Source: Candidatus Woesearchaeota archaeon (GTDB taxonomy: Archaea > Nanobdellota > Nanobdellia > Pacearchaeales > GW2011-AR1). From it: 64,000 bases of DNA. The position numbers and the translations under genes are program-made. Shown one piece after another: positions 47,592 through 60,278 of the stretch. The DNA lies in NCBI GenBank assembly GCA_964530945.1, contig CAZHCJ010000002.1, positions 14,899 through 78,898 of the forward strand. Reading direction: 5' to 3'. The notes beneath the pieces were generated by a model. The model worked only from the letters and a program-made list of their open reading frames with translations. It was not told the origin of the DNA and did not search any database. The first letter of the stretch is position 1, and each line of letters starts with the position of its first letter.

Positions 47592-48305
47592 ATGTCTGAA
47601 GAAAATACAATAACGTTCAAAAAAGATACTCTATGGAAAGTTGGAACAGCTGTGTTTGCTATTCTTTTTGTATTTGCATTGCTCGGCGGATTCGGCTCAT
47701 TAGGAAGTAGTTCAGGAGCCGTTGTCGATGACAAAGATGCAGGACAACAAGATGATGTGAATGCAAAAGCTCTTATTGAAGATAATGATCCTGTTTTAGG
47801 AAATGAAGATGCTGAAGTTTCAATCGTCGAATTTAGCGATTTTCAGTGTTCATTTTGCGCGAGAGCCCATACAGGAGCGATGGCTGATTTTAAGGCAAGT
47901 AGTTATTTTACCAATGGTGAAGTAAATTTTGTTTACAAGCATTTGCCTTTGAATAGCATTCATCCACAAGCTCAAGAAGCTGCAGAAGCTTCATTATGTG
48001 CTCAAGACCAAGAATCTTTCTGGGAATACCATGATATGCTTTTCGCAAATCAAGGAGCTCTAGATACAAGTAGTTTGAAATCTTATGCTGCACAACTTGG
48101 ACTCGACACAGGAGAGTTTAATGAGTGTCTTGATAGTGGAGAAAAAGCTTCCGAGGTTAATAAAGAGACGGCTCAAGCAACTTCTGCTGGAGCGAGAGGA
48201 ACACCTTATTTCCTTGTTGTTAACACAAAAACGGGAGATGCTACAAGTGTTTCAGGAGCAGTTCCATTTTCACAATTCGAGACCGCAATTAATGCGGTTC
48301 TTTAA
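47592..48305 (+). CDS. DsbA-like thiol:disulfide oxidoreductase, membrane-anchored (copy 1)
   Basis: SD AAAGGAGG; N-terminal TM; FSDFQCSFCARAH CxxC in a thioredoxin fold; cis-Pro region GTPYFLV. Confidence 0.7.
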   Translation: MSEENTITFKKDTLWKVGTAVFAILFVFALLGGFGSLGSSSGAVVDDKDAGQQDDVNAKALIEDNDPVLGNEDAEVSIVEFSDFQCSFCARAHTGAMADFKASSYFTNGEVNFVYKHLPLNSIHPQAQEAAEASLCAQDQESFWEYHDMLFANQGALDTSSLKSYAAQLGLDTGEFNECLDSGEKASEVNKETAQATSAGARGTPYFLVVNTKTGDATSVSGAVPFSQFETAINAVL

Positions 48306-48374
48306 TTTTTTATTTTTAAGAATATTTTTTATTTTTTTGCTTAAGTTTAAATAAACAAAATAACAGAAACTAGT

Positions 48375-48890
48375 ATGAAAAAATCACGTAAAAGAAGAAT
48401 AAAGAATGCATTTAGAGGTCGCTATTTAGTACTTTTTGTATTATGGTTTTTAGCATATGTTGCATTAAATGTCTATTTTAATGAATTATATGTTAGTCTG
48501 GAAATATGGAGCTCATACAATCAATTATTTCTAATTCCTTTTGTATTGTTCAACTTCTTAATTGTTCCTTTTCTTATTTCTCTAACAGTAAATCTTAGCA
48601 TTTTGCGTTTCAAAGAAGCAGGAAGTGGTTTTGGAGATAGAAGTGCATCAGGAGTTGGAGGTGTTGGGGCTTTGATAGGAATTGTTGCCGGCGCTTGCCC
48701 GGGATGTTTTGTCGGTTTGTTTCCCGCAGTTTTAGGTATTTTTGGAGTAAGTGCAACGCTTTCTGCCTTGCCTTTATTCGGGTTGGAATTACAAGTGCTT
48801 TCTTCTGCTCTCTTGTTGTTGGCCATATATTTGTTAACCAAAGATATTGTTTGCGAAGTTCCTTTGGAGATGAAAGGAGGTGACAAGTAA
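48375..48890 (+). CDS. membrane protein with intramembrane CPGC motif
   Basis: GIVAGACPGCFVGLFPAVLG inside a hydrophobic helix. Confidence 0.4.
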   Translation: MKKSRKRRIKNAFRGRYLVLFVLWFLAYVALNVYFNELYVSLEIWSSYNQLFLIPFVLFNFLIVPFLISLTVNLSILRFKEAGSGFGDRSASGVGGVGALIGIVAGACPGCFVGLFPAVLGIFGVSATLSALPLFGLELQVLSSALLLLAIYLLTKDIVCEVPLEMKGGDK

Positions 48891-49295
48891 ATGAATAGAA
48901 AATTAATTTTAGGAATAGGTGTAATTGTGGTGGTGTTTGTTTTGTTTTTTGCTTTTGCAGGAAATGAATCTCAAGGTGATGTTGTTTCTGAATCAGAAGA
49001 AAATCAGGCGAGTACACGGGCTGTGAAGGAGTTCGATGTTGTTGCTAGAAATTGGGAATTCGTTCCAGGAACGATAGAGGTGAATCAAGGAGACAGGATT
49101 GTGTTGAATGTTGAAAGTGTGGATGGGGATCATGGAATAATGATTTCTGAATTTGGAGTAAACGAGCACTTGTCTCCCGGAGAAGAAACAATGATAGAGT
49201 TTGTTGCAGACAAGAAAGGAACATTCACGTTTTTTTGTAATGTTTATTGTGGGGCAGGACACTCTAATATGAGAGGAGAGCTTATTGTGAGATAA
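48891..49295 (+). CDS. membrane-anchored cupredoxin-domain protein with CuA-type copper ligand pattern
   Basis: H (DGDHGIMI) ... FCNVYCGAGHSNM = C-x3-C-G-x2-H-x2-M as in COX II/N2OR CuA; SD GGAGGTG upstream. Confidence 0.6.
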   Translation: MNRKLILGIGVIVVVFVLFFAFAGNESQGDVVSESEENQASTRAVKEFDVVARNWEFVPGTIEVNQGDRIVLNVESVDGDHGIMISEFGVNEHLSPGEETMIEFVADKKGTFTFFCNVYCGAGHSNMRGELIVR

Positions 49296-49296
49296 A

Positions 49297-49701
49297 ATGA
49301 AATACCTCATAATACTCGTTTTGTCATTGCTTGGATTTTTCTTAGCTGGCTACATAAATCTTAAAACGGAAAGGAAAGAAAAGCTTGTTTGTGTTATTGG
49401 AAATGATTGCAATAAAGTTATAAAGAGCAAATATGGAAAAACTTTTGGTATGGACAACACTTTTCTTGGGATGATTTATTATCTTGTTGTTTTGATTTTG
49501 GCTCTTGACGTTTTGATTTTTCCTTGGATAGTTAGCGTTGGTTTGTTTTACTGGGTGTTTTTTCTCATCACTTTGGGAGCTGCCCTTTTCTCTGTGTATC
49601 TAACCATTATACAATTGTTTGTAATTAAAGAGTTGTGTGAGTATTGCCTTCTTACGGCTTTAAACACAATATTAATATTTGTACTGTTTATTGTTTTGTA
49701 A
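49297..49701 (+). CDS. VKOR-family (vitamin K epoxide reductase-like) membrane thiol oxidoreductase, the DsbB-analog partner of DsbA-like proteins
   Basis: Loop Cys pair CVIGNDC, SKYGKTFGM, and CEYC CxxC at the start of the last TM. Confidence 0.6.
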   Translation: MKYLIILVLSLLGFFLAGYINLKTERKEKLVCVIGNDCNKVIKSKYGKTFGMDNTFLGMIYYLVVLILALDVLIFPWIVSVGLFYWVFFLITLGAALFSVYLTIIQLFVIKELCEYCLLTALNTILIFVLFIVL

Positions 49702-49702
49702 A

Positions 49703-50293
49703 ATGAAATTTTCAAAAAAAGAAACCAAAGATTTGACGTTTGCCGGAATAATGATTTCTTTAGCTTTTGCCATACTTCTTGCAGGAGGATTCAATATTTT
49801 AAGTGAAGGGTTTTTCAGTGTTTTCATAATTGCGTTTTTTACCGCCGGAATTGGGTTTTTATTGCATGAACTGATGCATAAATTTGTTGCTCAGCGTTAT
49901 AAAATGTGGGCAGAGTTTCGTGCAGATTATAAAATGCTTTGGGTTGCAATAGCTTTCGCATTTTTCGGATTTATTATTGCGGCACCAGGAGCAGTTTACA
50001 TTCGTGGAAGAATCACAAATGAAAAAAATGGGAAGATTTCTCTTGCAGGTCCTATGACAAACCTAGTACTTGCGATTTTGTTTTTAATTCCTTTACTTTT
50101 AGTTAGTTTTAGTTCGCAAATTCTCTATGCGTTTTTCAGTTTTGGCTTAACAATTAATTCTTTGCTTGCGGCATTTAACATGATTCCGGTTATGCCTTTT
50201 GACGGTGCAAAGATAATAAAATGGAATAAAGAATGGTATTACTTTACTTTGCTTGCAGGGGTCGGCCTTTTTATTCTGAGTTTTGTGGTTTGA
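49703..50293 (+). CDS. site-2 protease family (M50) intramembrane zinc metalloprotease
   Basis: HELMHK inside TM and downstream AAFNMIPVMPFDGAKI (LDG-type third ligand motif). Confidence 0.6.
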   Translation: MKFSKKETKDLTFAGIMISLAFAILLAGGFNILSEGFFSVFIIAFFTAGIGFLLHELMHKFVAQRYKMWAEFRADYKMLWVAIAFAFFGFIIAAPGAVYIRGRITNEKNGKISLAGPMTNLVLAILFLIPLLLVSFSSQILYAFFSFGLTINSLLAAFNMIPVMPFDGAKIIKWNKEWYYFTLLAGVGLFILSFVV

Positions 50294-50326
50294 TAGTTTT
50301 ATAAACGCTTTTGATTATTTTAAAAA

Positions 50327-50818
50327 ATGGAAAATAAGCATGTGGGTTATCTTGTTTTAGGAATCGCTGTTGTTTTAGTTGGAATCATATTCTTATATCA
50401 AAACGCTATGCAAGAGATAGTTTATCTTAGCTGTGGTTTAGAACACAGTGTTACATGTCCCATGAATCAAACCATAATGCAACAAACCTATTTGGCCTTG
50501 GGAATTGTAGGTATTTTAGTAGTTATTGCTGGTCTGTTAATATTTAGCAAACCTAAAGAGAGAATCATTGTTAAAGAAAAGAAAGTTAAAGTTAAAGAAA
50601 AACGTAAAAGGCCAAGTGTTAAAGACCTAAGTGCTAAGGAGAAAAAAGCCTTGGATTTGATTGAAAAAGAAGAAGGCGCGATGTTCCAATCTGAACTGAA
50701 AGAAAAGCTAGATATAGGAAAAGTCGGAATGACTCGCCTTTTAGATAAACTTGAAGCTAAACAATTCTTGGAAAGGAAAAGAAGAGGAATGAATAACATT
50801 GTTGTGCTGAAGTATTAG
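50327..50818 (+). CDS. membrane-tethered winged-helix transcription regulator with extracytoplasmic Cys pair (copy 1)
   Basis: TM1, loop SCGLEHSVTCPMNQ, TM2, K/R-rich then wHTH ...MTRLLDKLEAKQFLERKRRGMNNIVVL. Confidence 0.55.
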   Translation: MENKHVGYLVLGIAVVLVGIIFLYQNAMQEIVYLSCGLEHSVTCPMNQTIMQQTYLALGIVGILVVIAGLLIFSKPKERIIVKEKKVKVKEKRKRPSVKDLSAKEKKALDLIEKEEGAMFQSELKEKLDIGKVGMTRLLDKLEAKQFLERKRRGMNNIVVLKY

Positions 50819-50861: not shown

Positions 50862-51080
50862 ATGAAAATAGACACAACGAAGATGAGTTCTAGAGGACAA
50901 ATAGTTATTCCTAGAGATTTACGCGAAGGCATAAATGCAGGAGAAAAATTGATAGTTATAAGGAAAAAAGACGAAATAATATTGAAAAAATCACTTCCTG
51001 AGAATGCCTTATGGTCTGAAAAATCTTTGTCAAAAACGTGGCTGAATAAAGAGGAAGACGAAATATGGAAAGATTTGTGA
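50862..51080 (+). CDS. mazE: MazE/AbrB-family antitoxin
   Basis: MSSRGQIVIPRDLRE. Confidence 0.6.
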   Translation: MKIDTTKMSSRGQIVIPRDLREGINAGEKLIVIRKKDEIILKKSLPENALWSEKSLSKTWLNKEEDEIWKDL

Positions 51081-51397
51081 AAGGAGATGTTGTTGTCATG
51101 GATTTCCCTTTTTCTAATTTAAAAAATTCTAAAAGAAGACCTGCGCTGGTGATTAAAGTTCCTAAAGGAGATGATTTAATTGTATCTCAAATAACAGGAA
51201 AATCTTATGAAGAAGATTTAGAAATTGAGATTACAAAGAAAGATTTTGCAAAAGGTAAGTTGAAAGTAAACAGCTATCTTAGAATAGATAAATTTTTTTC
51301 AATTGAGAAATATCTTATCAAATATAAAATCGGAAAGTTAAAACCTAAGAAATTTAATGAGATAATTGATTCCATAATCGATTTTTTGAAAAAGTGA
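51065..51397 (+). CDS. mazF: MazF/PemK-family toxin (mRNA interferase)
   Basis: KGDVVVMDFPFSN...RPALVIKV matches the MazF N-terminal core; overlaps the antitoxin. Confidence 0.65.
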   Translation: MERFVKGDVVVMDFPFSNLKNSKRRPALVIKVPKGDDLIVSQITGKSYEEDLEIEITKKDFAKGKLKVNSYLRIDKFFSIEKYLIKYKIGKLKPKKFNEIIDSIIDFLKK

Positions 51398-51498
51398 TTT
51401 TTTTTCTATTTTGGGATGGTTTTATCTAAAACCTTCAAAAAGTTCCATGTAACTAGTTACACCGAAGCGGTTATAATAAATGATTTCTTGGGTTTTGC

Positions 51499-52128
51499 AT
51501 GGTTAAGAAAAAATCAACAGGCAAAAAAACAGATTGGGAGTTTTATGCTCAGATAGGAGTTGTAGTAATATTAGCTGGCATATTGATATATTCTTTAAAT
51601 CTTCCTAGTGTTTCTGCTTCAGGAGTTATTCCTACCGGAGTTCCAGAGGTTTATGGAGAAGAGCTCGGTATTACATATGATGATGTTTCACCTCAAAACC
51701 AGCAACTTGCTGATAAAACTATAAGATTACTTGGCAACATAGATCGTTTGGAAACTCTTGACGAATCTAAGATGGGGCGTTACATAAACATATTGTATAG
51801 TATGAATAATGGAATCTCTTGTGAGTATTGTTGTGGGGCTCGTTCAGTAATATTTGAAAACGGACAACCGGCCTGTGGGTGTGCACATAGTTATGCTATG
51901 CGTGGTCTGACAAAATACTTGTTAATAAATCATCCTGATATGAATGATGAACAGATACTTGAAGAAGTAGGGAAATGGAAAACATTATTTTTCCCCGGAA
52001 TCATTCAAGGTAAAGCAGATATAATGGAAAGCCAAGGACTTGATACGGATTATTTGAGTTTGACAACAAATAAGTATAGAGGAATAGAGCAAGGGCAGGT
52101 AAGCGGAGGAATGATTGGCGCTTGTTAA
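51499..52128 (+). CDS. membrane-anchored secreted Cys-rich protein ending in ...SGGMIGAC
   Basis: TM near N-terminus; CEYCCGARS...CGCAHS; C-terminal tail shared with the next small ORF. Confidence 0.45.
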   Translation: MVKKKSTGKKTDWEFYAQIGVVVILAGILIYSLNLPSVSASGVIPTGVPEVYGEELGITYDDVSPQNQQLADKTIRLLGNIDRLETLDESKMGRYINILYSMNNGISCEYCCGARSVIFENGQPACGCAHSYAMRGLTKYLLINHPDMNDEQILEEVGKWKTLFFPGIIQGKADIMESQGLDTDYLSLTTNKYRGIEQGQVSGGMIGAC

Positions 52129-52381: not shown

Positions 52382-52861
52382 ATGAACAAAAAATTTTTAA
52401 TAGGAATGGGAGTATTGGCATTAATCTTTTTAGTCGTAGTCTTACTCCCAAGTCCAAGTGCTGCAGATTATGAAAATATTAATGCTGTTGAAAGCGAGAT
52501 AGAAATTTATAAATCGGCTACATGTGGGTGCTGTGGAATTTACACAAGCTATTTTGACGGAAAAACAAGTCCAGATATAGAATCTTTGAATGTTCAAGAT
52601 ACTTATTCTATTAAAAGAGAACACGGCGTTCCTCCTGAATTAGAAAGTTGCCATACTACCTTAATTGATGGATACTTTGTTGAAGGACATATTCCTTTAG
52701 AAGCTATTGAAAAACTTTTATCTGAAAAACCGGATGTTGCAGGAATTGCTATGCCCGGAATGCCTTCTGGAAGTCCAGGAATGCCAGGGCCTAAAAGAGG
52801 AGATTTTGTAATATACAGTGTAAACCATGATGGAAGCTATCAAGAGTTCATGAGGATATAG
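52382..52861 (+). CDS. DUF411-like (CopG-type) periplasmic metal-binding protein
   Basis: Signal peptide; CGCCGIY motif, CHTTLIDGYFVEGHIP, Met/Pro-rich GIAMPGMPSGSPGMPGP. Confidence 0.55.
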   Translation: MNKKFLIGMGVLALIFLVVVLLPSPSAADYENINAVESEIEIYKSATCGCCGIYTSYFDGKTSPDIESLNVQDTYSIKREHGVPPELESCHTTLIDGYFVEGHIPLEAIEKLLSEKPDVAGIAMPGMPSGSPGMPGPKRGDFVIYSVNHDGSYQEFMRI

Positions 52862-52870
52862 TTAGGAAAA

Positions 52871-53398
52871 ATGGATAAAAAACTTTTTTCTTTATTTTTT
52901 GGATGGATTTTTTTAATATCTTTTTCTAAATTAGTTTCTGCACATTGTCCCTTGTGTACTATTGGAGCTGGGGCGGCCGCAGGAGCAGCTGTTTGGTTAG
53001 GGATTAGCAAAGTTGTAGTTGCATTGTTTATTGGGGCTTTTGCAATGTCAATGGGGATATGGTTTTCAAATATTAAATATTTGAAAAAGAAACGTTTTCC
53101 TTTCCAGAAAACCCTAATTGTTTTAGGTGTCTTTCTTTTGACATTCATTCCTTTATTGCCCATAATTAGCGCAATAGGTCCATTGTATTTGTCTTTTATT
53201 GGAGAATATGGAACAACTTACGCCTTTAATTACTCTATTTTAAGTGGGCTTTTTGGAGGGATTTTAGTTTTTTCAGCCCCAGGTTTAAGCAAAAAATTAA
53301 CCCAACTAAGAAAAGGAAAAATGCTTCCTTTCCAAGGAATCTTGATAACATTCTCATTGTTAATCTTCACAGGGGGGCTTATACAAGTTTTAATTTAA
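52871..53398 (+). CDS. membrane protein with N-terminal HCPLC motif
   Basis: SAHCPLCTIGAGAAAGAAV then several TM. Confidence 0.4.
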   Translation: MDKKLFSLFFGWIFLISFSKLVSAHCPLCTIGAGAAAGAAVWLGISKVVVALFIGAFAMSMGIWFSNIKYLKKKRFPFQKTLIVLGVFLLTFIPLLPIISAIGPLYLSFIGEYGTTYAFNYSILSGLFGGILVFSAPGLSKKLTQLRKGKMLPFQGILITFSLLIFTGGLIQVLI

Positions 53399-53824
53399 AT
53401 GGAAATTTTAACACTTGTTTTGCTTGGAGTTATTCTATTATTTTTTATATTTTTAGCAATGAAAAACCTAATCGGAAGTGAAAGGATTTGTGCAATATGC
53501 TTTTCAGTTCTGTTCACTTGGATATTTTTACTTCTAGGGTATTTTTGGGGGTTGTTTTTCAATAAAATAATAATAGCCATTTTGATGGGGATGAGTGTGT
53601 TAGGAATATATTATGTTGCCGAGAAAAAAGTCAAAAAAAGATTCTTGGTTTTTAGGTTGCCTTTTTTACTGACATTAATATTTGTTGTTTATTTTGTTTT
53701 AGAAGAATTTATTTTAGAAAGTTTTATTTTATTAGGCGTTTTATGGGTATTTTTCATCCTAATTTATTCATTCAAATTTAATGGATTTGCAAAAAAACTT
53801 GTGGAGTGCTGCAAAAAATGGTAA
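53399..53824 (+). CDS. membrane protein, C-terminal CCKKW
   Basis: Hydrophobic ORF. Confidence 0.35.
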   Translation: MEILTLVLLGVILLFFIFLAMKNLIGSERICAICFSVLFTWIFLLLGYFWGLFFNKIIIAILMGMSVLGIYYVAEKKVKKRFLVFRLPFLLTLIFVVYFVLEEFILESFILLGVLWVFFILIYSFKFNGFAKKLVECCKKW

Positions 53825-54279
53825 AGAGAAAAAGCAATAATGGGAACAGCAATGCAGTTTTATATGGTGTGTTGGCAGGTGTAGGATTGTTAGTATTTTA
53901 TGTTTTAGTTGTTTCTCTTTTTCAAAGCGTGGATTTCGCTCTTTTGAATATTAGAAGTTTGTGGTATTTGGTCATTCCTTTGGTAATAGGTTTTGGAACG
54001 CAAATAGGTCTTTATAGCTCAATACGTCACACTGCTACTGTCACGGGAACCGCTGCGGCCACGGGAGGGATTTCTGCAGGAGGAATGTTAGCATGTTGTA
54101 GCCATTTCCTTTTGAACATAATTCCTTTGGCAGGAGCATCTGGTTTGGCTATATTTCTTATGAAATACCAGCCTGCATTTCTTGGAGTGGGAATTGCTTC
54201 AAGTATTTTTGGAATTGGATTGATGGTTAAGCATAAAAAATCTATGAAAAAAGGTTTGAAAGGAGGTAAATGTCATTAA
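53806..54279 (+). CDS. membrane protein with intramembrane ACCSH motif
   Basis: GGISAGGMLACCSHFLLNIIPLAG; C-terminal GGKCH. Confidence 0.4.
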   Translation: MLQKMVKRKSNNGNSNAVLYGVLAGVGLLVFYVLVVSLFQSVDFALLNIRSLWYLVIPLVIGFGTQIGLYSSIRHTATVTGTAAATGGISAGGMLACCSHFLLNIIPLAGASGLAIFLMKYQPAFLGVGIASSIFGIGLMVKHKKSMKKGLKGGKCH

Positions 54280-54813
54280 ATGAATAAAAAAATTTTACTT
54301 TATGGTGCTTTAGGTTTGGTGGTTTTAGTCTTAGCCCTTTTCACAATTTTTCCAGGAATGATTTATGCAGTAAAAGATGCCGGAATTACAGGGAATAGTC
54401 TTTCAAATTCTACAAATGACAAATGTTCTCCTGCTCCAGGTTATGATGAAGAATCATGGAGAGAACACATGAGTCATCATCCAAATATATACAAAGAGTG
54501 TTTTGTCTCTGATCTAGAAAGTGATGAATTTGAAGAATTTGTCGAAAGTGATAATGTTTTCATAATAAACACTCATACCCCGTATATTGGGGAAATAGAA
54601 GGAACAGATTTGATTGCTAAAGACTGGCAAAATATAGCCTCTTATGAAGATCAGTTGCCAGAAAATAAGAATGCACCTATAGGGGTTTATTGTAGAAGTG
54701 GAAGTATGTCTTCGAGTGCTGCTAGCCAATTAATTGATTTGGGCTATACAAATGTTTACAATCTTGAAGGTGGAATGAATGCCTGGCGGGATTCAGGAAG
54801 AACTTTGATTTAA
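54280..54813 (+). CDS. membrane-anchored rhodanese-domain sulfurtransferase
   Basis: IGVYCRSGSMSSSAASQLIDLGYTNVYNLEGGMNAW (active-site Cys loop). Confidence 0.7.
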   Translation: MNKKILLYGALGLVVLVLALFTIFPGMIYAVKDAGITGNSLSNSTNDKCSPAPGYDEESWREHMSHHPNIYKECFVSDLESDEFEEFVESDNVFIINTHTPYIGEIEGTDLIAKDWQNIASYEDQLPENKNAPIGVYCRSGSMSSSAASQLIDLGYTNVYNLEGGMNAWRDSGRTLI

Positions 54814-54870: not shown

Positions 54871-55365
54871 ATGAAACCTCGTTATTTGGGTATATCCATT
54901 GTCATTGTTAGCCTTGTTGTTTTAGGGGGCCTCTTTTATCTTAATTCTAGTTTAAATAAACAGAACTTTGAGAATTGTATAACTTCTTGCGAAATGCAGG
55001 AAAACACTTCATGTTCCGTAGAATCATGTAATTTGGAAAGAGGCCATAATGATTTTGAGGAATTTATCTCTATATTAGAAATTTTAGTTGCGTTCCTTGC
55101 AGGAATAGGATTTTACCTTTCTTTAACAAAAAAAGAAAAGATAATTGAACAGAAAGAATATGATTTGAGTAAATTAAACAAAGAAGAAAAAAGGGTTTTT
55201 TTGCTTGTTAAGAAAAATAAAGAAAAAGGGATTTATCAAAGTAATATTGTAAAAGAGTTTGATTTTTCAAAATCTAAAGTGACTCGGATATTAGATCGTT
55301 TAGAACAATCTAAACTGGTTGAGAGAAAAAGGCGCGGGATGACAAATCTTATTGTCCTTAAATAA
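54871..55365 (+). CDS. membrane-tethered winged-helix regulator with extracytoplasmic 4-Cys segment (copy 2)
   Basis: TM1, NCITSCEMQENTSCSVESC, TM2, wHTH ending ERKRRGMTNLIVLK (same ending as copy 1). Confidence 0.55.
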   Translation: MKPRYLGISIVIVSLVVLGGLFYLNSSLNKQNFENCITSCEMQENTSCSVESCNLERGHNDFEEFISILEILVAFLAGIGFYLSLTKKEKIIEQKEYDLSKLNKEEKRVFLLVKKNKEKGIYQSNIVKEFDFSKSKVTRILDRLEQSKLVERKRRGMTNLIVLK

Positions 55366-55424
55366 AATCAGTTTCAGGTGTAAAACTAGTTTCACGTTAT
55401 ATTTATAAACCGTTTTTTTAAGTC

Positions 55425-55643
55425 TTGTGTATGAAAAAAGAGATTGTTGTCTTGAATATAAAAAATATTGATGTTAATCATTGTCTTGCTCTTCCAGAGT
55501 TGGGAATTAATGAAGAATTAATTCCTGAAAAAAAGATTGCAGTTGAGTTTGTTGTAGATAAAAAAGGAAGTTTTACATTTTTTTATAATGTTTATTATGG
55601 AGCAGGGCATAACTCAGTGAGTAGGAGATTGATAGTAAAATAA
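55425..55643 (+). pseudogene. degenerate remnant of the CuA-type cupredoxin (copper ligands lost)
   Basis: VEFVVDKKGSFTFFYNVYYGAGHNSVSRRLIV aligns with IEFVADKKGTFTFFCNVYCGAGHSNMRGELIV of 48891-49295 with both Cys replaced by Tyr and Met by Val; N-terminal cupredoxin barrel missing. Confidence 0.45.
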
Positions 55644-55662
55644 AGATGAAAGGAGGTTTAAT

Positions 55663-56409
55663 ATGTCGAAAGAAACAATTACATTAAAAAGAGACACTTT
55701 GTGGAAAGTTGCTACAGGTATTTTTGCGTTATTATTTATAGTTGCATTGTTTTCGGGAGGGCTTAATTTTTCGGGACCTGATAGTCAAGGAACTTCAGGA
55801 AACAGCGTGGTTCAACAACCAAATCAACGGCCTTCAATAGTGGAAGCTAGTGTTGATGATGATCCTGTTTTTGGAAATGAAAATGCTCCTGTAACAATGA
55901 TAGAATTTAGTGATTACCAGTGTCCTTTTTGTAGAAAATTCTGGACAGAAACATTACCACAAATAAAATCAGAATATATTGATACAGGTAAAGTTAAATT
56001 TGTTTACCGTGATTTTCCTTTGAATAGTATACATCCAAGTGCCCAGGCAGCGGCAGAAACTGCTGAATGTGTGAGAGATAACTATAGTGAAGATGCTTAT
56101 TGGGAAATACATGATAAGATTTTCTCAGAGCAAAATATTCTTGATGGAGGAGACCCTATAATAGGTCCTGTAAAAGGAACAGTGCAATTTAGTGAAAATG
56201 ATCTAAAGAATTGGGCAAGTGATCTAGGATATGAAATAGGAGGTTGTCTTGATTCTGGAAAATTCACGAGCGAAGTTCAAAAAGATATTACTGATGCAAC
56301 AGCCGCAGGAGGTCGTGGAACACCATATTTTGTCATTAATGGTCAACCATTGAGCGGAGCACAACCTTTTAGTTCATTTAAGCAGGTAATTGATGCAGAA
56401 TTATCTTAA
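55663..56409 (+). CDS. DsbA-like thiol:disulfide oxidoreductase, membrane-anchored (copy 2)
   Basis: SD AAAGGAGG; FSDYQCPFCRKFW; same architecture as copy 1 (ITLKRDTLWKVATGIFALLF). Confidence 0.7.
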   Translation: MSKETITLKRDTLWKVATGIFALLFIVALFSGGLNFSGPDSQGTSGNSVVQQPNQRPSIVEASVDDDPVFGNENAPVTMIEFSDYQCPFCRKFWTETLPQIKSEYIDTGKVKFVYRDFPLNSIHPSAQAAAETAECVRDNYSEDAYWEIHDKIFSEQNILDGGDPIIGPVKGTVQFSENDLKNWASDLGYEIGGCLDSGKFTSEVQKDITDATAAGGRGTPYFVINGQPLSGAQPFSSFKQVIDAELS

Positions 56410-56453: not shown

Positions 56454-56609
56454 ATGGATAAAACAATCTTTTTAGGACACCATCCTCTGAATGACCCCAC
56501 ATTGGTAGGAACTGGCGCCACCTCAAATACAGGAGGGTTTATCATAGCAGGAATGTTCTTGTTGTTCTTTATAGGATTAATTTACTGGTTAGCCAAAAAA
56601 TCTCGCTAG
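56454..56609 (+). CDS. small membrane peptide (51 aa)
   Basis: Below track cutoff; single TM. Confidence 0.25.
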   Translation: MDKTIFLGHHPLNDPTLVGTGATSNTGGFIIAGMFLLFFIGLIYWLAKKSR

Positions 56610-56654: not shown

Positions 56655-57017
56655 ATGATAGACAAGAACATATTAAAAACATGTCACAGTGAAGGTTATG
56701 AAGAAGATGATATTTATGGCGCGTATAAAATATTTTTTGGAACTCTTGTGAGTGAGTCAAGATTAAGAATAATTAATGTCTTAAGAAAAGGTAAAAAAAA
56801 TGTTTCAGGGATTATTAAAGAATTAAAAATGGATCAAACAAGCGTTTCACACAATCTTTCAAGGCTTAAACAATGTGGATTTGTTGATTCCAAAAGAAAT
56901 GGAAAATTTGTTTATTATGAATTAAACGAGAAAACAATTAATCCTCTGATGGATTTAATTGATAAACATATGTCAAGACATTGTTTGCACATACTCAAGG
57001 AGATAAAAAATGAATAA
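56655..57017 (+). CDS. ArsR/SmtB-family metalloregulator
   Basis: LRIINVLRKGKKNVSGIIKELKMDQTSVSHNLSRLKQCGFVDSKRNGKFVYYEL HTH plus N- and C-terminal Cys/His. Confidence 0.75.
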   Translation: MIDKNILKTCHSEGYEEDDIYGAYKIFFGTLVSESRLRIINVLRKGKKNVSGIIKELKMDQTSVSHNLSRLKQCGFVDSKRNGKFVYYELNEKTINPLMDLIDKHMSRHCLHILKEIKNE

Positions 57018-57495
57018 AATAAATTTGATGGTTTTTTTAGCAATAGCATTTATTGTTTTTAGCTTTGCTTCTGTTCCAACTATTTTGGCACATAGTGATG
57101 AAACACTTTTAGAGGCAGAACATTTAGTTGAAGAACAAATTTCTTGCGATGAGCTTACAAATACTCAATTAGCAGCAATAGGAGATTATTATATGGAACA
57201 GATGCATCCTGGAGAAGAGCATGAGTATATGGATGAGATGATGGGTGGAGAAGGCTCAGAAAGTTTGGAAGCGATGCATATAAACATGGCATACAGATTT
57301 TATTGTGATGGCTCATATGAAAATTCAGAATACGGGATTGCCGCAAATAATATGCCTATGATGAATAATTATTTCAGTAATTCTAGTTACATGGGTTTTC
57401 AATGGATGCCTTTGTCGGTTGCAATAATTCTTGTTTTGTTAGTTGTTTTGGTTGCCTTACAAGTTAAAAAGAAATCAAAAGGAAGTAAAAAATGA
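57010..57495 (+). CDS. secreted Met/His-rich putative copper-binding protein with C-terminal TM anchor
   Basis: Signal peptide; MEQMHPGEEHEYMDEMMGG, NNMPMMNNY. Confidence 0.5.
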   Translation: MNKINLMVFLAIAFIVFSFASVPTILAHSDETLLEAEHLVEEQISCDELTNTQLAAIGDYYMEQMHPGEEHEYMDEMMGGEGSESLEAMHINMAYRFYCDGSYENSEYGIAANNMPMMNNYFSNSSYMGFQWMPLSVAIILVLLVVLVALQVKKKSKGSKK

Positions 57496-57583
57496 TTAAA
57501 AAAATATTTAACTACAGCTTGCCAATTTTTTTATTGGTTTTATCTCAGCGCATACTGGAGATGATTATTATACTCATCATTCT

Positions 57584-57706
57584 ATGATGGATGGTTATTC
57601 CGGATGGTTTTTTGGAGGGGTTTTGATGATTTTAGTTGTAATTGCTCTGATTTTAGGGATAATTTGGTTGATTAAACAAATAAGTGAAAAACCAAAAAAG
57701 AGATAA
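57584..57706 (+). CDS. small membrane peptide (40 aa), paralog of 60303-60509
   Basis: MMDGYSGWFFGG...LGIIWLIKQISEK vs MGYGMMGSYFGGGFMW...LGILWLIKELKK. Confidence 0.3.
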   Translation: MMDGYSGWFFGGVLMILVVIALILGIIWLIKQISEKPKKR

Positions 57707-57708
57707 AA

Positions 57709-57909
57709 ATGGCATTACTAAAGAAGAAATGTGCTTACTGCGGAGACAAGATTGAAAGAGAAAAAGAGATATTCAGAGATGTGAAAACCCCTGGATTTGT
57801 AGGAACAAGAAAGAAAGCATTCATGTCTGAGGAGCATGCAGATAAATATGAAAAAGAAGTTGAAGAGCATATGAAAAAACCTTCTAAGGGAGGGGGCTGT
57901 TGTGGTTAA
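57709..57909 (+). CDS. TRASH/YHS-like metal-binding small protein with C-terminal GGGCCG
   Basis: CAYCGDKI...KKAFMSEEHADKYEKE resembles the YHS/TRASH fold (CxxC ... YYFCSeeC..F) with Met/His in place of the second Cys pair. Confidence 0.45.
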   Translation: MALLKKKCAYCGDKIEREKEIFRDVKTPGFVGTRKKAFMSEEHADKYEKEVEEHMKKPSKGGGCCG

Positions 57910-57928
57910 ACAAAATAAAGAATTGTTT

Positions 57929-58045
57929 ATGTGTGAAGAATGCGAATTGAGTTATGATGATAAAAAATTTGCTAAGAAATGTGAATCATGGTGCAAAAAA
58001 CACAAATCTTGCAATCTTGAAATAACTAGACACGCTGTGAATTAG
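57929..58045 (+). CDS. small Cys-rich zinc-ribbon/TRASH-like peptide (38 aa)
   Basis: [28 protein letters not shown]: CxxC-x12-CxxxC-x5-C. Confidence 0.3.
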
Positions 58046-58046
58046 A

Positions 58047-60278
58047 ATGAAAAAACCTGTTAAAGCAATAATTTCAATACAAGGAATGCATTGTGCTAGT
58101 TGCGCATCTAACATAAAGAAAAATCTTGGGAAGGTTAAGGGCGTGAAAGAGGCTAGTGTGAGTCTTATGACAAATAAGGCTGTTGTTGAACTTGATGGAG
58201 AAAAAGTTCCTGAAGAGAAATTAAGAAAAGCTATTTCTTCTGTTGGGAATTATGAAGCTTTAAACATTGAGTACTCTGACTCTGGAAAAAAGAGTGAGGA
58301 AAAACAAAAACACGAAGAGTACTCTAAAGAGCATAAACATCCTCATGGTGTTGCAAGCAATGCCGAGGAGAAAAATTGGAAACGCAAGATGGCTTGGGGG
58401 TGGATTATAACCCTTCCTGTAGCATTTCTTATGTTTTCAGAAAGATTTTTTAATATTGAAATAGGTCATATCTTGACCACTTACTTAATTCTAATACTTT
58501 CTTTTCCAGTAGTTTTTATTTTAGGCTGGAACACAATAAAAGGTGGCTTCAAGGGCCTTTCAAAATTTTACTTTAATATGGATTTGCTCATAGCTCTTGG
58601 AACGATTATAGCATATGTTTCTGGAATACTAACTTTCTTTTTACCTCTTGAAAATTATTCTGGTGTTGCAGCAATGATTATGACCATTTTTCTTACGGGA
58701 AAGTATATTGAAGCCCGTGCTCGCGGAAGAGCAGGACAGGAAATAAAGAAACTTTTGGAGTTAGGGGCTAAAAAGGCTAGGCGTTTAAAAAATGGCGAAG
58801 AAATTGAAATAGATGTTTCTGAAATAAAAAAAGGAGATATTTTGATAGTTAAACCAGGAGAAAAGATACCTACCGACGGGGTTGTTGTTAAAGGGGGAAG
58901 TAGTGTTGATGAATCAATGGTTACAGGAGAAAGTATTCCTATAGACAAAACAAAAGGTAGTAATGTTATTGGGGCAACGGTAAATCAAGATGGGATTTTA
59001 CATATTAAAGCTACAAAAGTGGGCAAAGACACATTTCTCTCACATATAATTGAATTAGTTGAAAAGACCCAAAGTTCAAAAGTCCCAATACAAGCTTTTG
59101 CAGACAAAATAACAAATATTTTTGTCCCTACAGTAATACTCATTACAATTTTAACTTTTATAGGATGGATTCTTTTTGGCGCAAGTGTCAGCAATGCTCT
59201 TGCCATAGCAATAGCTGTTTTAGTTATAGCTTGTCCGTGTGCCCTTGGACTAGCGACGCCGACTGCTTTAATGGTTGGCTCTGGAATTGGAGCTAAAAAT
59301 GGAATTTTAATTAGAAAAGGCGAGGCAATACAAACAATGAAAGAAGTTAAAACAATTGTATTAGATAAAACAGGAACAATTACTAAAGGAAAACCAGAGG
59401 TTGTTGAAGTGTATTCTTTGGGTAAAGAAAAAGAATTGATTGGAATTGCTGCAAGTTTAGAAAAGCTGAGCGAGCATCCATTATCTCATGCCATAGTTGA
59501 AAAAGGTAAAGAAATGAAAGCAAAAACCTTGAAAGTTAAAAATTTCAAAATACTTAGAGGGCGAGGAGTTCAAGGAAAAATTGGCGGTAATGATATTCTT
59601 ATTGGAAATAGTAATTTAATCAAAGAGAAAAATATTCCTCTCGGAAAACTCAAGAAAAAAGTTTCTGAGTTTGAAAATAGAGGTCATACTACAATAATCG
59701 TTTCTGAAAATAAACGTGTTTTGGGAATTATTGGTGTTGCAGATGCACCTAAAGATGATTCTAAAGAAGCAATTTTAAAACTTAAAAAAATGGGGTTGGA
59801 AGTGGTTATGATGACTGGAGATAATGAAGCGACAGCTAAAGCAATTGGCAAAAAAGTGGGCATTAATGAGGTTCTTGCAAGCGTCATGCCTGGAGATAAA
59901 GCAAAAGAAGTAAAATCTTTGCAAAATAAAAATAAAGGAATGGTTGCTTTTGTCGGAGATGGAATAAATGACGCTCCTGGATTGAAGCAAGCAAACGTGG
60001 GAATTGCGATGGGAACAGGAACAGACATCGCTATTGAAGCAGGGGACATAGTGATAGTTAAAGGCTCTCTTAATGGAGTAGTCCAAGCAATAAATCTAAG
60101 TAATGCAACATTCAGCAAGATTAAACAAAATGTATTTTGGGCATTCGCATATAATATCATTGCCATACCTGTAGCAATCGCTGGTTTGTTGCATCCTATA
60201 ATTGCAGAGCTTGCAATGGCTCTTTCGTCTGTAAGTGTTGTAGGAAATGCGAATCTGCTAAGAAGAAAAAAGATTTAA
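58047..60278 (+). CDS. copA: copper-translocating P1B-type ATPase CopA
   Basis: [18 protein letters not shown] ([14 protein letters not shown]), [25 protein letters not shown]. Confidence 0.9.

What the first reader, a model, noticed from the sequence alone, without database searches (positions are those of the whole stretch)
54871..56409. Second, partly decayed copy of the regulator-cupredoxin-DsbA unit: segmental duplication with ligand loss
About 5 kb downstream there is a paralogous membrane-tethered wHTH regulator (4 outside Cys, same C-terminal ERKRRGMTNLIVLK ending). It is followed by a 72-aa fragment that aligns residue-by-residue with the C-terminal copper-binding strand of the cupredoxin, but with Cys to Tyr, Cys to Tyr and Met to Val substitutions and no N-terminal barrel. 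Then comes a second DsbA-like gene (CPFC). This looks like an old duplication of the module in which the cupredoxin decayed while the regulator and DsbA were kept. It provides an internal control for which parts are under selection.
Basis: seen in the sequence. Interest (0 to 1): 0.55.

Follow-up and report, generated by a model that had tools for sequence, protein, structure and literature searches.

The report
Cupredoxin relic in regulator–DsbA unit
A 70-codon leftover of a copper-protein gene, with its copper site destroyed, sits between a membrane-bound regulator and the disulfide-enzyme gene it probably controls in a tiny (DPANN) archaeon; it is a one-off gene relic in a conserved two-gene unit, not proof of a duplicated three-gene module.

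Summary
The sequence observation is real. Reg2 (54871-55365), a 70-72 aa ORF (55431-55643) and DsbA2 (55663-56409) each have a paralog 4.5-8 kb upstream (26%, 46% and 42% identity). The ORF aligns without gaps to the last 69 residues of the CuA-type cupredoxin, with Cys>Tyr, Cys>Tyr and Met>Val.

The cupredoxin piece is degenerate. It has no membrane anchor and lacks strands β1-β3. It has changed 9 of 28 family-conserved positions, is a long branch, and has no counterpart among 1.84 billion representative proteins.

There is no duplicated regulator-cupredoxin-DsbA module. Gene order is mirrored on the same strand. Reg1 and Reg2 are old paralog groups that co-occur in other genomes.

In 17 aligned loci with a Reg2 ortholog, the regulator gene is followed by a conserved operator and TATA box. 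That promoter drives dsbA2 with no cupredoxin in between. The relic occupies a variable cargo slot. Its ATG lies at the conserved leaderless start and its stop lies just before the dsbA2 ribosome-binding site.

Most likely it is a lineage-specific, internally deleted, copper-dead gene remnant, carried on the dsbA2 transcript. Interest is low to moderate. The conserved regulator-operator unit is the more useful result.

The parts
54871..55365 (+). Reg2: membrane-tethered winged-helix regulator. It has two TM helices (about residues 6-24 and 62-85), an extracytoplasmic loop with CxxxC...CxxxxC, and a C-terminal DUF7343/MarR-like wHTH domain.
   Evidence: Pfam DUF7343 at 43.4 bits, above the 27.6 cut-off. 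Orthologs at 60-68% identity keep the 4 Cys. Topology is inferred from the positive-inside rule.
55366..55395 (+). Putative Reg2 operator: two palindromic sites about 20 bp apart. Site 1 is AATCAGTTTCA (degenerate in the window). Site 2 is AAACTAGTTTCAC, centred on CTAG.
   Evidence: Conserved immediately after the Reg2 stop codon in 17 other loci, with invariant AAC..GTT..CG. AACYRGTTWCAC occurs only twice in the 64 kb window (expected 0.06); the other copy lies after Reg1. Binding by Reg2 is inferred.
55402..55409 (+). Archaeal TATA box (TTTATAAA) of the Reg2-adjacent promoter.
   Evidence: TTATAA is invariant in alignment A3. An ATG follows 20-26 nt downstream in most loci, which fits a leaderless transcript (inference).
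55431..55643 (+). 70-aa ORF (72 aa if read from the TTG at 55425): relic of a stand-alone CuA-type cupredoxin, corresponding to β4-β9 only. Ligand positions are H17, Y52 (55584-55586), Y56 (55596-55598), H60 and V63 (55617-55619).
   Evidence: BLASTP E 4e-24 to Cup1. phmmer gave 999 family hits, all of the listed ones full-length with the match at their C-terminus. 9 of 28 conserved positions are changed. Pfam hits fall below gathering scores. AF2 shows six strands. There is no ortholog anywhere.
55647..55656 (+). Ribosome-binding site of dsbA2 (TGAAAGGAGG). It starts 4 nt after the relic's stop codon.
   Evidence: The same TGAAAGGAGGT block precedes dsbA2 in all relatives and also precedes DsbA1 and Cup1 in the window (D7).
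55663..56409 (+). DsbA2: N-terminally anchored DsbA-like thiol:disulfide oxidoreductase (CPFC). It is the conserved target gene of the promoter.
   Evidence: Pfam Thioredoxin_4 at 114.6 bits and DSBA at 55 bits. 80 DPANN loci carry orthologs at up to 69% identity.
47592..50818 (+). The 'first copy': DsbA1 (47592-48305), CPGC membrane protein (48375-48890), Cup1 with an intact CuA site (48891-49295), VKOR (49297-49701), M50 protease (49679-50293) and Reg1 (50327-50818).
   Evidence: Pfam. PDB hits to the Thermus ba3 CuA domain and to NosZ. AF2 pLDDT 90.
51449..51478 (+). Sister operator and TATA box (GTAACTAGTTAC ... TTATAATAAA) in front of the p209-DUF411-...-rhodanese operon. In relatives this lies directly after Reg1.
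   Evidence: (L002).

Best explanation
The locus is a conserved two-gene regulatory unit of Pace-/Woese-/Nanoarchaeota (DPANN archaea). It lies inside a copper/thiol-stress island.

How the unit is built: Reg2 is a membrane-tethered winged-helix regulator with a Cys-rich outside loop. Immediately after its stop codon come two palindromic operator sites and a TATA box. That promoter transcribes dsbA2, which encodes an anchored extracytoplasmic disulfide oxidoreductase.

The cargo slot: between the leaderless start position of the promoter and the dsbA2 ribosome-binding site there is a slot whose content varies among relatives. It holds nothing, a short uORF, or a 175-205 aa membrane protein.

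What happened in this lineage: the slot once received a stand-alone CuA-type cupredoxin gene of the DPANN 'nosZ-like' family. An in-frame internal deletion then removed the membrane anchor, the linker and strands β1-β3. What remains is Met-Lys-Lys fused to β4-β9. The remnant also lost both bridging Cys, the Met ligand and two invariant Gly.

Consequence: the product cannot be exported, cannot close the β-sandwich and cannot bind a CuA centre. It is a gene relic that rides on the dsbA2 mRNA.

Shown: homology, truncation, ligand loss, uniqueness, the conserved operator/promoter, and the conserved Reg2-dsbA2 adjacency.
Inferred: Reg2 binds the operator and senses extracytoplasmic thiol or copper state; the transcript is leaderless; the relic arose by internal deletion of a cargo gene; it has no function of its own.
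For: - Homology and exact ligand substitutions.
- Family-wide comparison: 137 homologs keep H/C/C/H/M. The relic keeps only 19 of 28 positions that are at least 80% conserved; it has lost G3, S12, G18, F24, A42, C52, C56, M63 and G65.
- Long branch: mean identity to the family is 44.5% against a median of 55.7%.
- AT drift: GC is 28.1% against 39.6% in the Cup1 counterpart. There are 33 G>A/C>T differences against 14 in the reverse direction.
- Missing parts: the Cup1 model has a TM helix at 3-19 and nine strands. The relic corresponds to strands 4-9 only. Its model superposes on only the C-terminal part of NosZ/COX2 CuA domains.
- Uniqueness: it is the only protein of its kind among 5.8 and 1.84 billion clusters and in JGI metagenomes.
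- Orthologous loci: the 17 loci aligned in A3 show Reg2-stop/operator/TATA leading to dsbA2 without any cupredoxin. Four of them carry a different gene in the same slot.
- The relic's ATG lies 22 nt after TATAA, at the column where 12 of 18 aligned loci have an ATG.
- MKK-type N-termini followed by a hydrophobic helix are typical of the family.
- An intact ORF is not unexpected under neutrality: about 20% of simulated sequences keep it at the divergence needed to change 9 of 28 conserved positions.
- Island context: CopA-type ATPase, DUF411, ArsR, rhodanese, VKOR.
Against: - The ORF is intact, aligns without a single indel over 69 codons, and starts exactly at the conserved leaderless ATG. This is also what a still-translated small protein or leader ORF would look like.
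- The simulation ignored indels, which would lower the neutral survival probability.
- No closer relative (90% identity or more) exists in the databases. The full-length precursor in the slot and the timing of deletion versus ligand loss are therefore unobserved.
- No expression data are available.
- Several of the lost conserved residues cluster at the metal site, which could reflect directed remodelling rather than random decay.
Confidence: 0.65

Rival explanations
1. The 70-aa ORF is functional in a new role. It could be a translated leaderless upstream ORF whose translation to within 19 nt of the dsbA2 start tunes dsbA2 expression. Alternatively it could be a cytoplasmic, copper-free half-cupredoxin that acts by dimerising or by binding a partner.
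For: The ORF is intact and gapless. Its ATG sits at the conserved leaderless position, where relatives have a short uORF or a real gene. Its stop lies 4 nt before the dsbA2 Shine-Dalgarno sequence. AF2 gives a confident six-stranded sheet with pLDDT 84, although that confidence is driven by the family alignment. The scaffold motifs FTFF-NVY-GAGH and both His are retained.
Against: It is a singleton with no ortholog in any collection. It has lost 9 of 28 conserved positions, including two invariant Gly, and is a long, AT-drifted branch. Neutral simulation keeps the ORF open in about 20% of runs. The uORFs of relatives are not conserved in frame or in presence. A β-sandwich missing three strands is unlikely to be stable on its own (inference).
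Confidence: 0.2
2. One reading: an ancient segmental duplication of a regulator-cupredoxin-DsbA module. In the second copy the cupredoxin decayed while the regulator and DsbA were kept.
For: Three paralog pairs lie within 9 kb on the same strand. Cupredoxin-like genes recur near DsbA and regulator genes in other DPANN loci, in various orders, for example L061 (regulator-cupredoxin-membrane protein-DsbA), L013 and L031.
Against: The order is mirrored with strands unchanged, and the offsets are 8.07, 6.35 and 4.54 kb. Regulator paralogs are 26% identical but have 55-68% orthologs elsewhere, and both types co-occur in five other genomes. None of the 17 aligned Reg2-dsbA2 loci has a cupredoxin or remnant between the two genes. 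A remnant as old as the Reg1/Reg2 split would not still be 46-53% identical to working family members. The relic is no closer to Cup1 than to foreign homologs.
Confidence: 0.08
3. An assembly or binning artefact: a chimeric join placed part of a cupredoxin gene in front of dsbA2.
For: The source is a metagenome-type assembly with no close relative for cross-checking.
Against: Both junctions are clean and biologically sensible. The 5' junction lies at the conserved leader just after the TATA box, and the 3' junction lies exactly between a stop codon and the native dsbA2 SD. The ligand codons differ from every other family member, so the piece is not a copy of a co-assembled intact gene. The flanking synteny over more than 8 kb matches L002, L003 and L036.
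Confidence: 0.02

Closest known systems
Stand-alone CuA-site cupredoxins of DPANN archaea ('nosZ-like' proteins; PMC10936187). Structurally these resemble the soluble CuA domain of Thermus thermophilus ba3 oxidase subunit II (PDB 2CUA) and the C-terminal domain of NosZ.
   Same: The relic shows clear sequence homology to this family (E 4e-24 to Cup1; 999 phmmer hits) and a matching fold for β4-β9 (TM-score about 0.8 on the query). The in-window Cup1 has the full H...C-x3-C-x3-H-x2-M motif.
   Different: The relic lacks the anchor, the linker and β1-β3. It has Tyr, Tyr and Val in place of Cys, Cys and Met. It scores below both Pfam gathering thresholds.
CyoA, subunit II of E. coli cytochrome bo3 quinol oxidase (PDB 1FFT chain B, 1CYX). 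This is the textbook cupredoxin domain that lost its CuA ligands during evolution (the ligand loss is cited from my own knowledge).
   Same: It is a CuA-type cupredoxin whose copper ligands have been substituted. 1fft_B appears among the fold matches, with TM-score 0.79 on the query.
   Different: CyoA is a complete, exported, conserved and functional domain within an enzyme complex. The relic is truncated, unanchored and unique to one genome.
Membrane-bound one-component transcription factors (ToxR, CadC and TcpP in bacteria), and anti-sigma-type systems released by site-2 (M50) proteases. This comparison is from my own knowledge.
   Same: Reg2 and Reg1 combine transmembrane segments and an outside sensory loop (Cys pairs) with a cytoplasmic DNA-binding domain. 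An M50 protease gene lies next to Reg1.
   Different: The DNA-binding domain is a C-terminal MarR/DUF7343-type wHTH after two TM helices, whereas ToxR has an N-terminal OmpR-type domain. The host is archaeal. No biochemical data exist, and no protease gene lies next to Reg2.
DsbA-VKOR/DsbB oxidative folding systems (PMC4555120, PMC11208910).
   Same: DsbA1 and DsbA2 have the thioredoxin/DSBA domain with CxxC and a Thr-Pro cis-proline motif. A VKOR homolog is encoded in the first cluster.
   Different: Both DsbAs are N-terminally membrane-anchored archaeal proteins. They are embedded in a copper-homeostasis island and placed under a dedicated membrane-tethered regulator.

Membership tests
CuA-type cupredoxin (Pfam COX2 PF00116 / Cupredoxin_1 PF13473) | Significant sequence homology to family members | tested here: met
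   BLASTP E 4e-24 to Cup1. phmmer gave 57 hits at or below 1e-10.
CuA-type cupredoxin (Pfam COX2 PF00116 / Cupredoxin_1 PF13473) | Score above the Pfam gathering threshold | tested here: not met
   COX2 scored 19.2 bits against a cut-off of 22. Cupredoxin_1 scored 18.3 bits against a cut-off of 27 and matched only profile positions 43-92 of 104.
CuA-type cupredoxin (Pfam COX2 PF00116 / Cupredoxin_1 PF13473) | Binuclear copper ligand set His...Cys-x3-Cys-x3-His-x2-Met | tested here: not met
   The relic has H17, Y52, Y56, H60 and V63. The two Cys are 99% conserved (135 of 137) and the Met 100% conserved (137 of 137) among homologs.
CuA-type cupredoxin (Pfam COX2 PF00116 / Cupredoxin_1 PF13473) | Complete Greek-key β-sandwich plus an export signal or membrane anchor | tested here: not met
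   Cup1 has a TM helix at residues 3-19 and nine strands. The relic begins at β4 and has no hydrophobic N-terminus. An in-frame stop lies 4 codons upstream of the ATG at 55431 (TAA 55419-55421).
Segmental duplication of a three-gene module | Collinear gene order and a constant offset between copies | tested here: not met
   Offsets are 8068-8074, 6348 and 4544 bp. The order is mirrored on the same strand.
Segmental duplication of a three-gene module | Paralogs within the genome are each other's closest relatives | tested here: not met
   Reg2 is 60-68% identical and DsbA2 60-69% identical to genes in other genomes, against 26% and 42% to the in-window paralogs. The relic is 53% identical to foreign homologs against 46-49% to Cup1.
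Gene relic / pseudogene | Truncated relative to all family members and absent from orthologous loci | tested here: met
   All 149 other listed hits are at least 116 aa, with the match at their C-terminus. No remnant is present in the 17 aligned Reg2-dsbA2 loci.
Gene relic / pseudogene | Loss of family-invariant residues and accelerated divergence | tested here: met
   9 of 28 conserved positions are changed. It has nearly the lowest mean identity in the family (only one homolog is lower). There is a GC-to-AT bias in the differences.
Gene relic / pseudogene | Disrupted reading frame (stop codons or frameshifts) | tested here: not met
   The ORF is open for 70 codons and gapless. Neutral simulation shows this is expected in about 20% of cases with substitutions only.
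Gene relic / pseudogene | dN/dS about 1 on its own lineage | tested here: inconclusive
   Only the distant Cup1 pair could be compared: pS 0.77 (saturated) and pN 0.28. No close relative exists.
DsbA-like thiol:disulfide oxidoreductase (DsbA2) | Thioredoxin/DSBA domain with a CxxC active site | tested here: met
   Thioredoxin_4 at 114.6 bits and DSBA at 55 bits. CPFC and GTPYF motifs are present.
MarR/DUF7343 winged-helix regulator (Reg2) | wHTH domain above the Pfam threshold | tested here: met
   DUF7343 at 43.4 bits, above the 27.6 cut-off. MarR_2 at 28.8 bits, above the 27 cut-off.
MarR/DUF7343 winged-helix regulator (Reg2) | Binds a palindromic operator at its target promoter | not testable with these tools
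   Conserved palindromes lie next to the gene in 18 loci, and the motif is enriched 2 observed against 0.06 expected. Binding itself needs EMSA or footprinting.

The most novel reading that the evidence does not exclude
The ex-cupredoxin ORF has been domesticated as a leaderless upstream ORF. Ribosomes would start at the transcript's 5' end, translate the 70 codons and terminate 4 nt before the dsbA2 Shine-Dalgarno sequence. In this way the relic would set or condition dsbA2 translation. Alternatively, its copper-free, Tyr-substituted half-sandwich would act as a small cytoplasmic protein. More broadly, the membrane-tethered Cys-loop wHTH regulators with a 3'-adjacent operator and a swappable 'cargo slot' would be an undescribed archaeal envelope-stress circuit.
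Probability: 0.12. Interest if true: 0.55.

Novelty: new member of a known kind. Interest (0 to 1): 0.3.

Why it matters
The relic itself is an ordinary truncated gene remnant. It matters mainly as a caution: co-localised paralogs in these small, shuffled DPANN genomes are not evidence of a module duplication, and the relic cannot serve as a same-age neutral control.

The useful by-product is a testable regulatory unit. A membrane-tethered, Cys-loop winged-helix regulator is followed directly by a conserved double palindrome and TATA box that drive an extracytoplasmic DsbA. A sister unit (Reg1 followed by the p209/DUF411/rhodanese operon) uses the same operator core. Both lie within a copper/thiol island.

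Almost nothing is known about transcriptional regulation or envelope redox and copper sensing in DPANN archaea. This unit offers defined DNA sites and protein domains for experiments.

Tried and rejected
- The word-indexed protein search with the relic found only itself.
- Exact-sequence contig look-ups for the relic and for DsbA2 found nothing on record.
- A metagenome scan with relic-derived peptide patterns found no relative.
- Cluster look-up showed that all five key proteins are singletons at 90% identity, so no near relative exists to date the truncation.
- Nei-Gojobori dN/dS for the three paralog pairs was rejected as uninformative. pS is 0.77 (beyond the Jukes-Cantor limit), 0.66 and 0.52.
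- I searched the window for the missing N-terminal half of the cupredoxin in any frame. Only chance-level hits appeared.
- I looked for gene conversion between Cup1 and the relic. An 83%-identical 65-nt patch contains seven synonymous differences and is explained by conserved residues plus AT-rich codon use, so this was rejected.
- The contexts of the relic's two nearest homologs (P0004, P0024) are unrelated: RFC/SSB genes and a ferredoxin gene. They give no hint of a donor locus.
- Rfam found no RNA family in the leader.
- The bacterial-type promoter and terminator scan was at chance level and is not applicable to an archaeon.
- ORF intactness as proof of function was rejected after the neutral simulation gave about 20% survival.
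Full report
**1. What is there**

The window is AT-rich (34% GC). All close relatives of its genes come from Pace-/Woese-/Nanoarchaeota MAGs, so it is a DPANN archaeon.

The ORFs around the finding, all on the + strand, are:

| Coordinates | Gene |
|---|---|
| 45196-47205 | subtilase |
| 47592-48305 | DsbA1 (CSFC) |
| 48375-48890 | CPGC membrane protein |
| 48891-49295 | Cup1 |
| 49297-49701 | VKOR |
| 49679-50293 | M50 protease |
| 50327-50818 | Reg1 |
| 50862-51397 | MazE/PemK pair |
| 51499-52128 | p209 |
| 52382-52861 | DUF411 protein |
| 52871-54279 | three membrane proteins |
| 54280-54813 | rhodanese |
| 54871-55365 | Reg2 |
| 55431-55643 | the short ORF |
| 55663-56409 | DsbA2 (CPFC) |
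| 56655-57017 | ArsR |
| 57010-58045 | His/Met-rich and Cys-rich small proteins |
| 58047-60278 | HMA-domain P-type ATPase |

The finding therefore sits in a copper/thiol-homeostasis island.

**2. Checking the observation**

The three paralog pairs are real.
- Reg1 vs Reg2: 26% identity, E 1e-18.
- Cup1 residues 66-134 vs the short ORF: 32 of 69 identical, no gap, E 4e-24.
- DsbA1 vs DsbA2: 42% identity, E 4e-65.

Cup1 carries the complete CuA motif: H81, C116-x3-C120-x3-H124-x2-M127. Its nearest solved relatives are the Thermus ba3 CuA domain and NosZ.

In the short ORF the corresponding codons read TAT, TAT and GTG instead of TGT, TGT and ATG. Both His are kept.

The ORF cannot be extended upstream, because an in-frame TAA lies at 55419-55421. 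No trace of the missing N-terminal half exists elsewhere in the window.

An AlphaFold model of Cup1 (pLDDT 90) shows a TM helix at residues 3-19, a linker and nine strands. The short ORF corresponds to strands 4-9 only. Its model superposes on only the C-terminal part of NosZ and COX2 CuA domains. It is therefore a partial cupredoxin, not an independent fold.

**3. Is it a decayed copy from a module duplication?**

No, for four reasons.

First, the pairs are not collinear. DsbA patches are offset by 8068-8074 bp, the cupredoxin patch by 6348 bp and the regulators by 4544 bp. The order is DsbA-Cup-Reg in one place and Reg-Cup-DsbA in the other, with no strand change. Nucleotide similarity exists only inside coding patches.

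Second, Reg1 and Reg2 belong to separate ortholog groups. Reg2-type genes in other genomes are 60-68% identical to Reg2, and Reg1-type genes are 44-65% identical to Reg1. The two groups are 25-30% identical to each other. Both types co-occur in L002, L005, L010, L084 and L085. The shared ERKRRGM.N..LK ending is a hallmark of the whole family.

Third, the larger synteny p209-DUF411-p175-p141-p157-rhodanese-Reg2-DsbA2-...-ArsR is conserved in L002, L003, L036, L061 and L069. Reg2-dsbA2 is thus an old unit in its own right.

Fourth, the short ORF is no closer to Cup1 (46-49%) than to homologs from unrelated contigs (up to 53%). Those contigs have unrelated neighbourhoods.

**4. The conserved unit and the slot**

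In 17 other loci, drawn from GTDB genomes and metagenomes, the Reg2 ortholog's stop codon is followed at once by four elements:
- two palindromic sites (GAACyrGTTTCA, 7-8 nt, GAACTAGTTyyAC);
- CG plus about 6 nt;
- an invariant TTATAA;
- a T-run.

Alignment A3 has invariant AAC..GTT..CG..TTATAA.

The core AACYRGTTWCAC occurs exactly twice in the 64-kb window, against 0.06 expected. One copy is here. The other is in front of p209, a promoter that directly follows the Reg1 ortholog in L002. In the window a MazE/PemK pair has been inserted between Reg1 and that promoter.

Downstream of the Reg2-side TATA box, 12 of 18 aligned sequences have an ATG 20-23 nt after TATAA. L001 and L004 have theirs at 25-26 nt. 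With a TATA box centred about 26-27 nt before the start site, which is general archaeal promoter geometry (my knowledge), this implies leaderless transcripts.

What follows that ATG varies:
- a 14-24 codon uORF and then the dsbA2 Shine-Dalgarno sequence (L005, L008, L010, L030, L081, L083-L087);
- no ATG at all at that position (L002, L003, L082);
- a 175-205 aa membrane protein (L001, L004, L012, L069).

None of these loci has a cupredoxin or a remnant there.

In the window the slot holds the 70-codon ORF. Its ATG is at +22 after TATAA. Its TAA stop lies 4 nt before the native TGAAAGGAGG of dsbA2.

**5. Relic or small protein?**

I compared the ORF with 137 homologs. It retains only 19 of 28 positions that are at least 80% conserved. 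Among the 11 positions that are at least 98% conserved, it has lost five: G18, C52, C56, M63 and G65.

Its mean identity to the family is 44.5%, against a family median of 55.7%. Only one homolog is lower.

Its GC content is 28.1%, against 39.6% for the Cup1 counterpart. The differences are strongly skewed toward G>A and C>T, 33 against 14. This is what mutation pressure does under relaxed selection, although Reg2 next door is also AT-rich.

It is unique. The only hit below 1e-30 among 1.84 billion representatives is itself. All other listed hits are at least 116 aa, with the match at their C-terminus. There is no relative in JGI metagenomes, and it is a singleton cluster.

The only argument for function is that the frame is open and gapless. 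A substitution-only neutral simulation was calibrated to change 9 of 28 conserved positions, which takes about 30-35 substitutions. It keeps the ORF and start codon intact in about 20% of runs. Intactness is therefore weak evidence, though unmodelled indels would lower that figure.

The low pN/pS against Cup1 (0.28/0.77) reflects the long shared history under selection, not the recent branch.

**6. Origin (inferred)**

The ORF begins Met-Lys-Lys and then runs straight into β4. MKK-type N-termini followed by a hydrophobic anchor are typical of the family: 41 of 125 homologs start M[KR][KRN], and 82 of 125 have an N-terminal hydrophobic helix.

The simplest history has three steps:
1. A full-length anchored CuA cupredoxin gene was inserted as cargo at the leaderless start of the Reg2 promoter.
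2. An in-frame internal deletion of about 65 codons removed the anchor, the linker and β1-β3.
3. Ligand loss occurred before or after the deletion.

The precursor state has not been observed.

**7. How the unit probably works (inferred)**

Reg2 has an N-in/C-in topology, with the four-Cys loop outside and the wHTH domain inside. This follows from the positive-inside rule applied to the sequences.

It would sense extracytoplasmic thiol oxidation or copper, and bind the two palindromes that abut the BRE/TATA of the dsbA2 promoter. It could do so while still tethered to the membrane, or after release by the M50 protease encoded next to Reg1. This would couple DsbA2 supply to envelope stress. In bacteria, disulfide isomerisation is part of copper tolerance (my knowledge).

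DPANN stand-alone CuA proteins have been described, and their function is unknown (PMC10936187).

**8. Verdict**

The relic is an ordinary lineage-specific gene remnant, so interest is about 0.3. The regulator-operator-slot architecture is the part worth following up.

Noticed in passing
window 50862-51397: A MazE-antitoxin/PemK(MazF)-toxin pair is inserted between the Reg1 stop codon (50818) and the conserved operator/TATA of the p209 operon (51449-51478). In L002 the Reg1 ortholog is followed directly by that operator. The toxin-antitoxin module therefore separates a regulator from its presumed target promoter.
   Followed up: partly
window 51451-51462 and 55384-55395: AACYRGTTWCAC occurs exactly twice in the 64 kb window, against 0.06 expected. 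One copy lies downstream of each membrane-tethered wHTH regulator, about 7-10 nt upstream of a TATA box. The two paralogous regulators seem to recognise near-identical palindromic cores.
   Followed up: partly
L005 5905-5960; L008 3250-3300; L010; L081; L083-L087 (leader between the Reg2 promoter and dsbA2): A short leaderless uORF (MSNRI.../MLNRL..., 14-24 codons) starts at the predicted transcription start and ends in or just past the dsbA2 Shine-Dalgarno sequence. Its first 3-4 codons are conserved, but its frame relative to the SD is not. It is absent in L002, L003 and L082.
   Followed up: partly
L001 5453-5980; L004 4115-4726; L012 4813-5400; L069 3287-3904: In four relatives the slot between the Reg2 promoter and dsbA2 holds a 175-205 aa membrane protein. 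Its C-terminal Cys-rich motif (...CCCKCWHWYAYEGLAKYLI...) resembles that of window p209 (51499-52128). The slot is therefore a hot spot for cargo exchange.
   Followed up: no
window 47592-50818: An intact stand-alone CuA cupredoxin (Cup1) is translationally packed between a CPGC membrane protein and a VKOR homolog. DsbA1 lies upstream, and an M50 site-2 protease and Reg1 lie downstream. This is an unusual pairing of a CuA protein with a disulfide-forming system in an organism group thought to lack respiratory oxidases (PMC10936187).
   Followed up: partly
window 56655-60278: The island continues with an ArsR-type regulator, a His/Met-rich secreted or anchored protein (57010-57495), two small Cys-rich ORFs (57709-57909, ending GGGCCG; 57902-58045, a weak DUF7128 hit) and an HMA-domain P-type ATPase with a CPC motif.
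   Followed up: no
L003, L008, L010, L014, L020, L023, L045, L048, L068, L081, L086 (1-3 kb downstream of dsbA2): Relatives carry a different cupredoxin-like family (...FTPTKKGTFRFACSMGMGYG..IVE, with no His ligands in the loop) between dsbA2 and ArsR, often flanked by CPGC membrane proteins. The window lacks this stretch and has only a 51-aa TM ORF (56454-56609) there.
   Followed up: no
window-wide: All five proteins checked (the relic, Cup1, Reg1, Reg2 and DsbA2) are singleton clusters at 90% identity among about 15 billion proteins. This genome has no sequenced close relative.
   Followed up: yes
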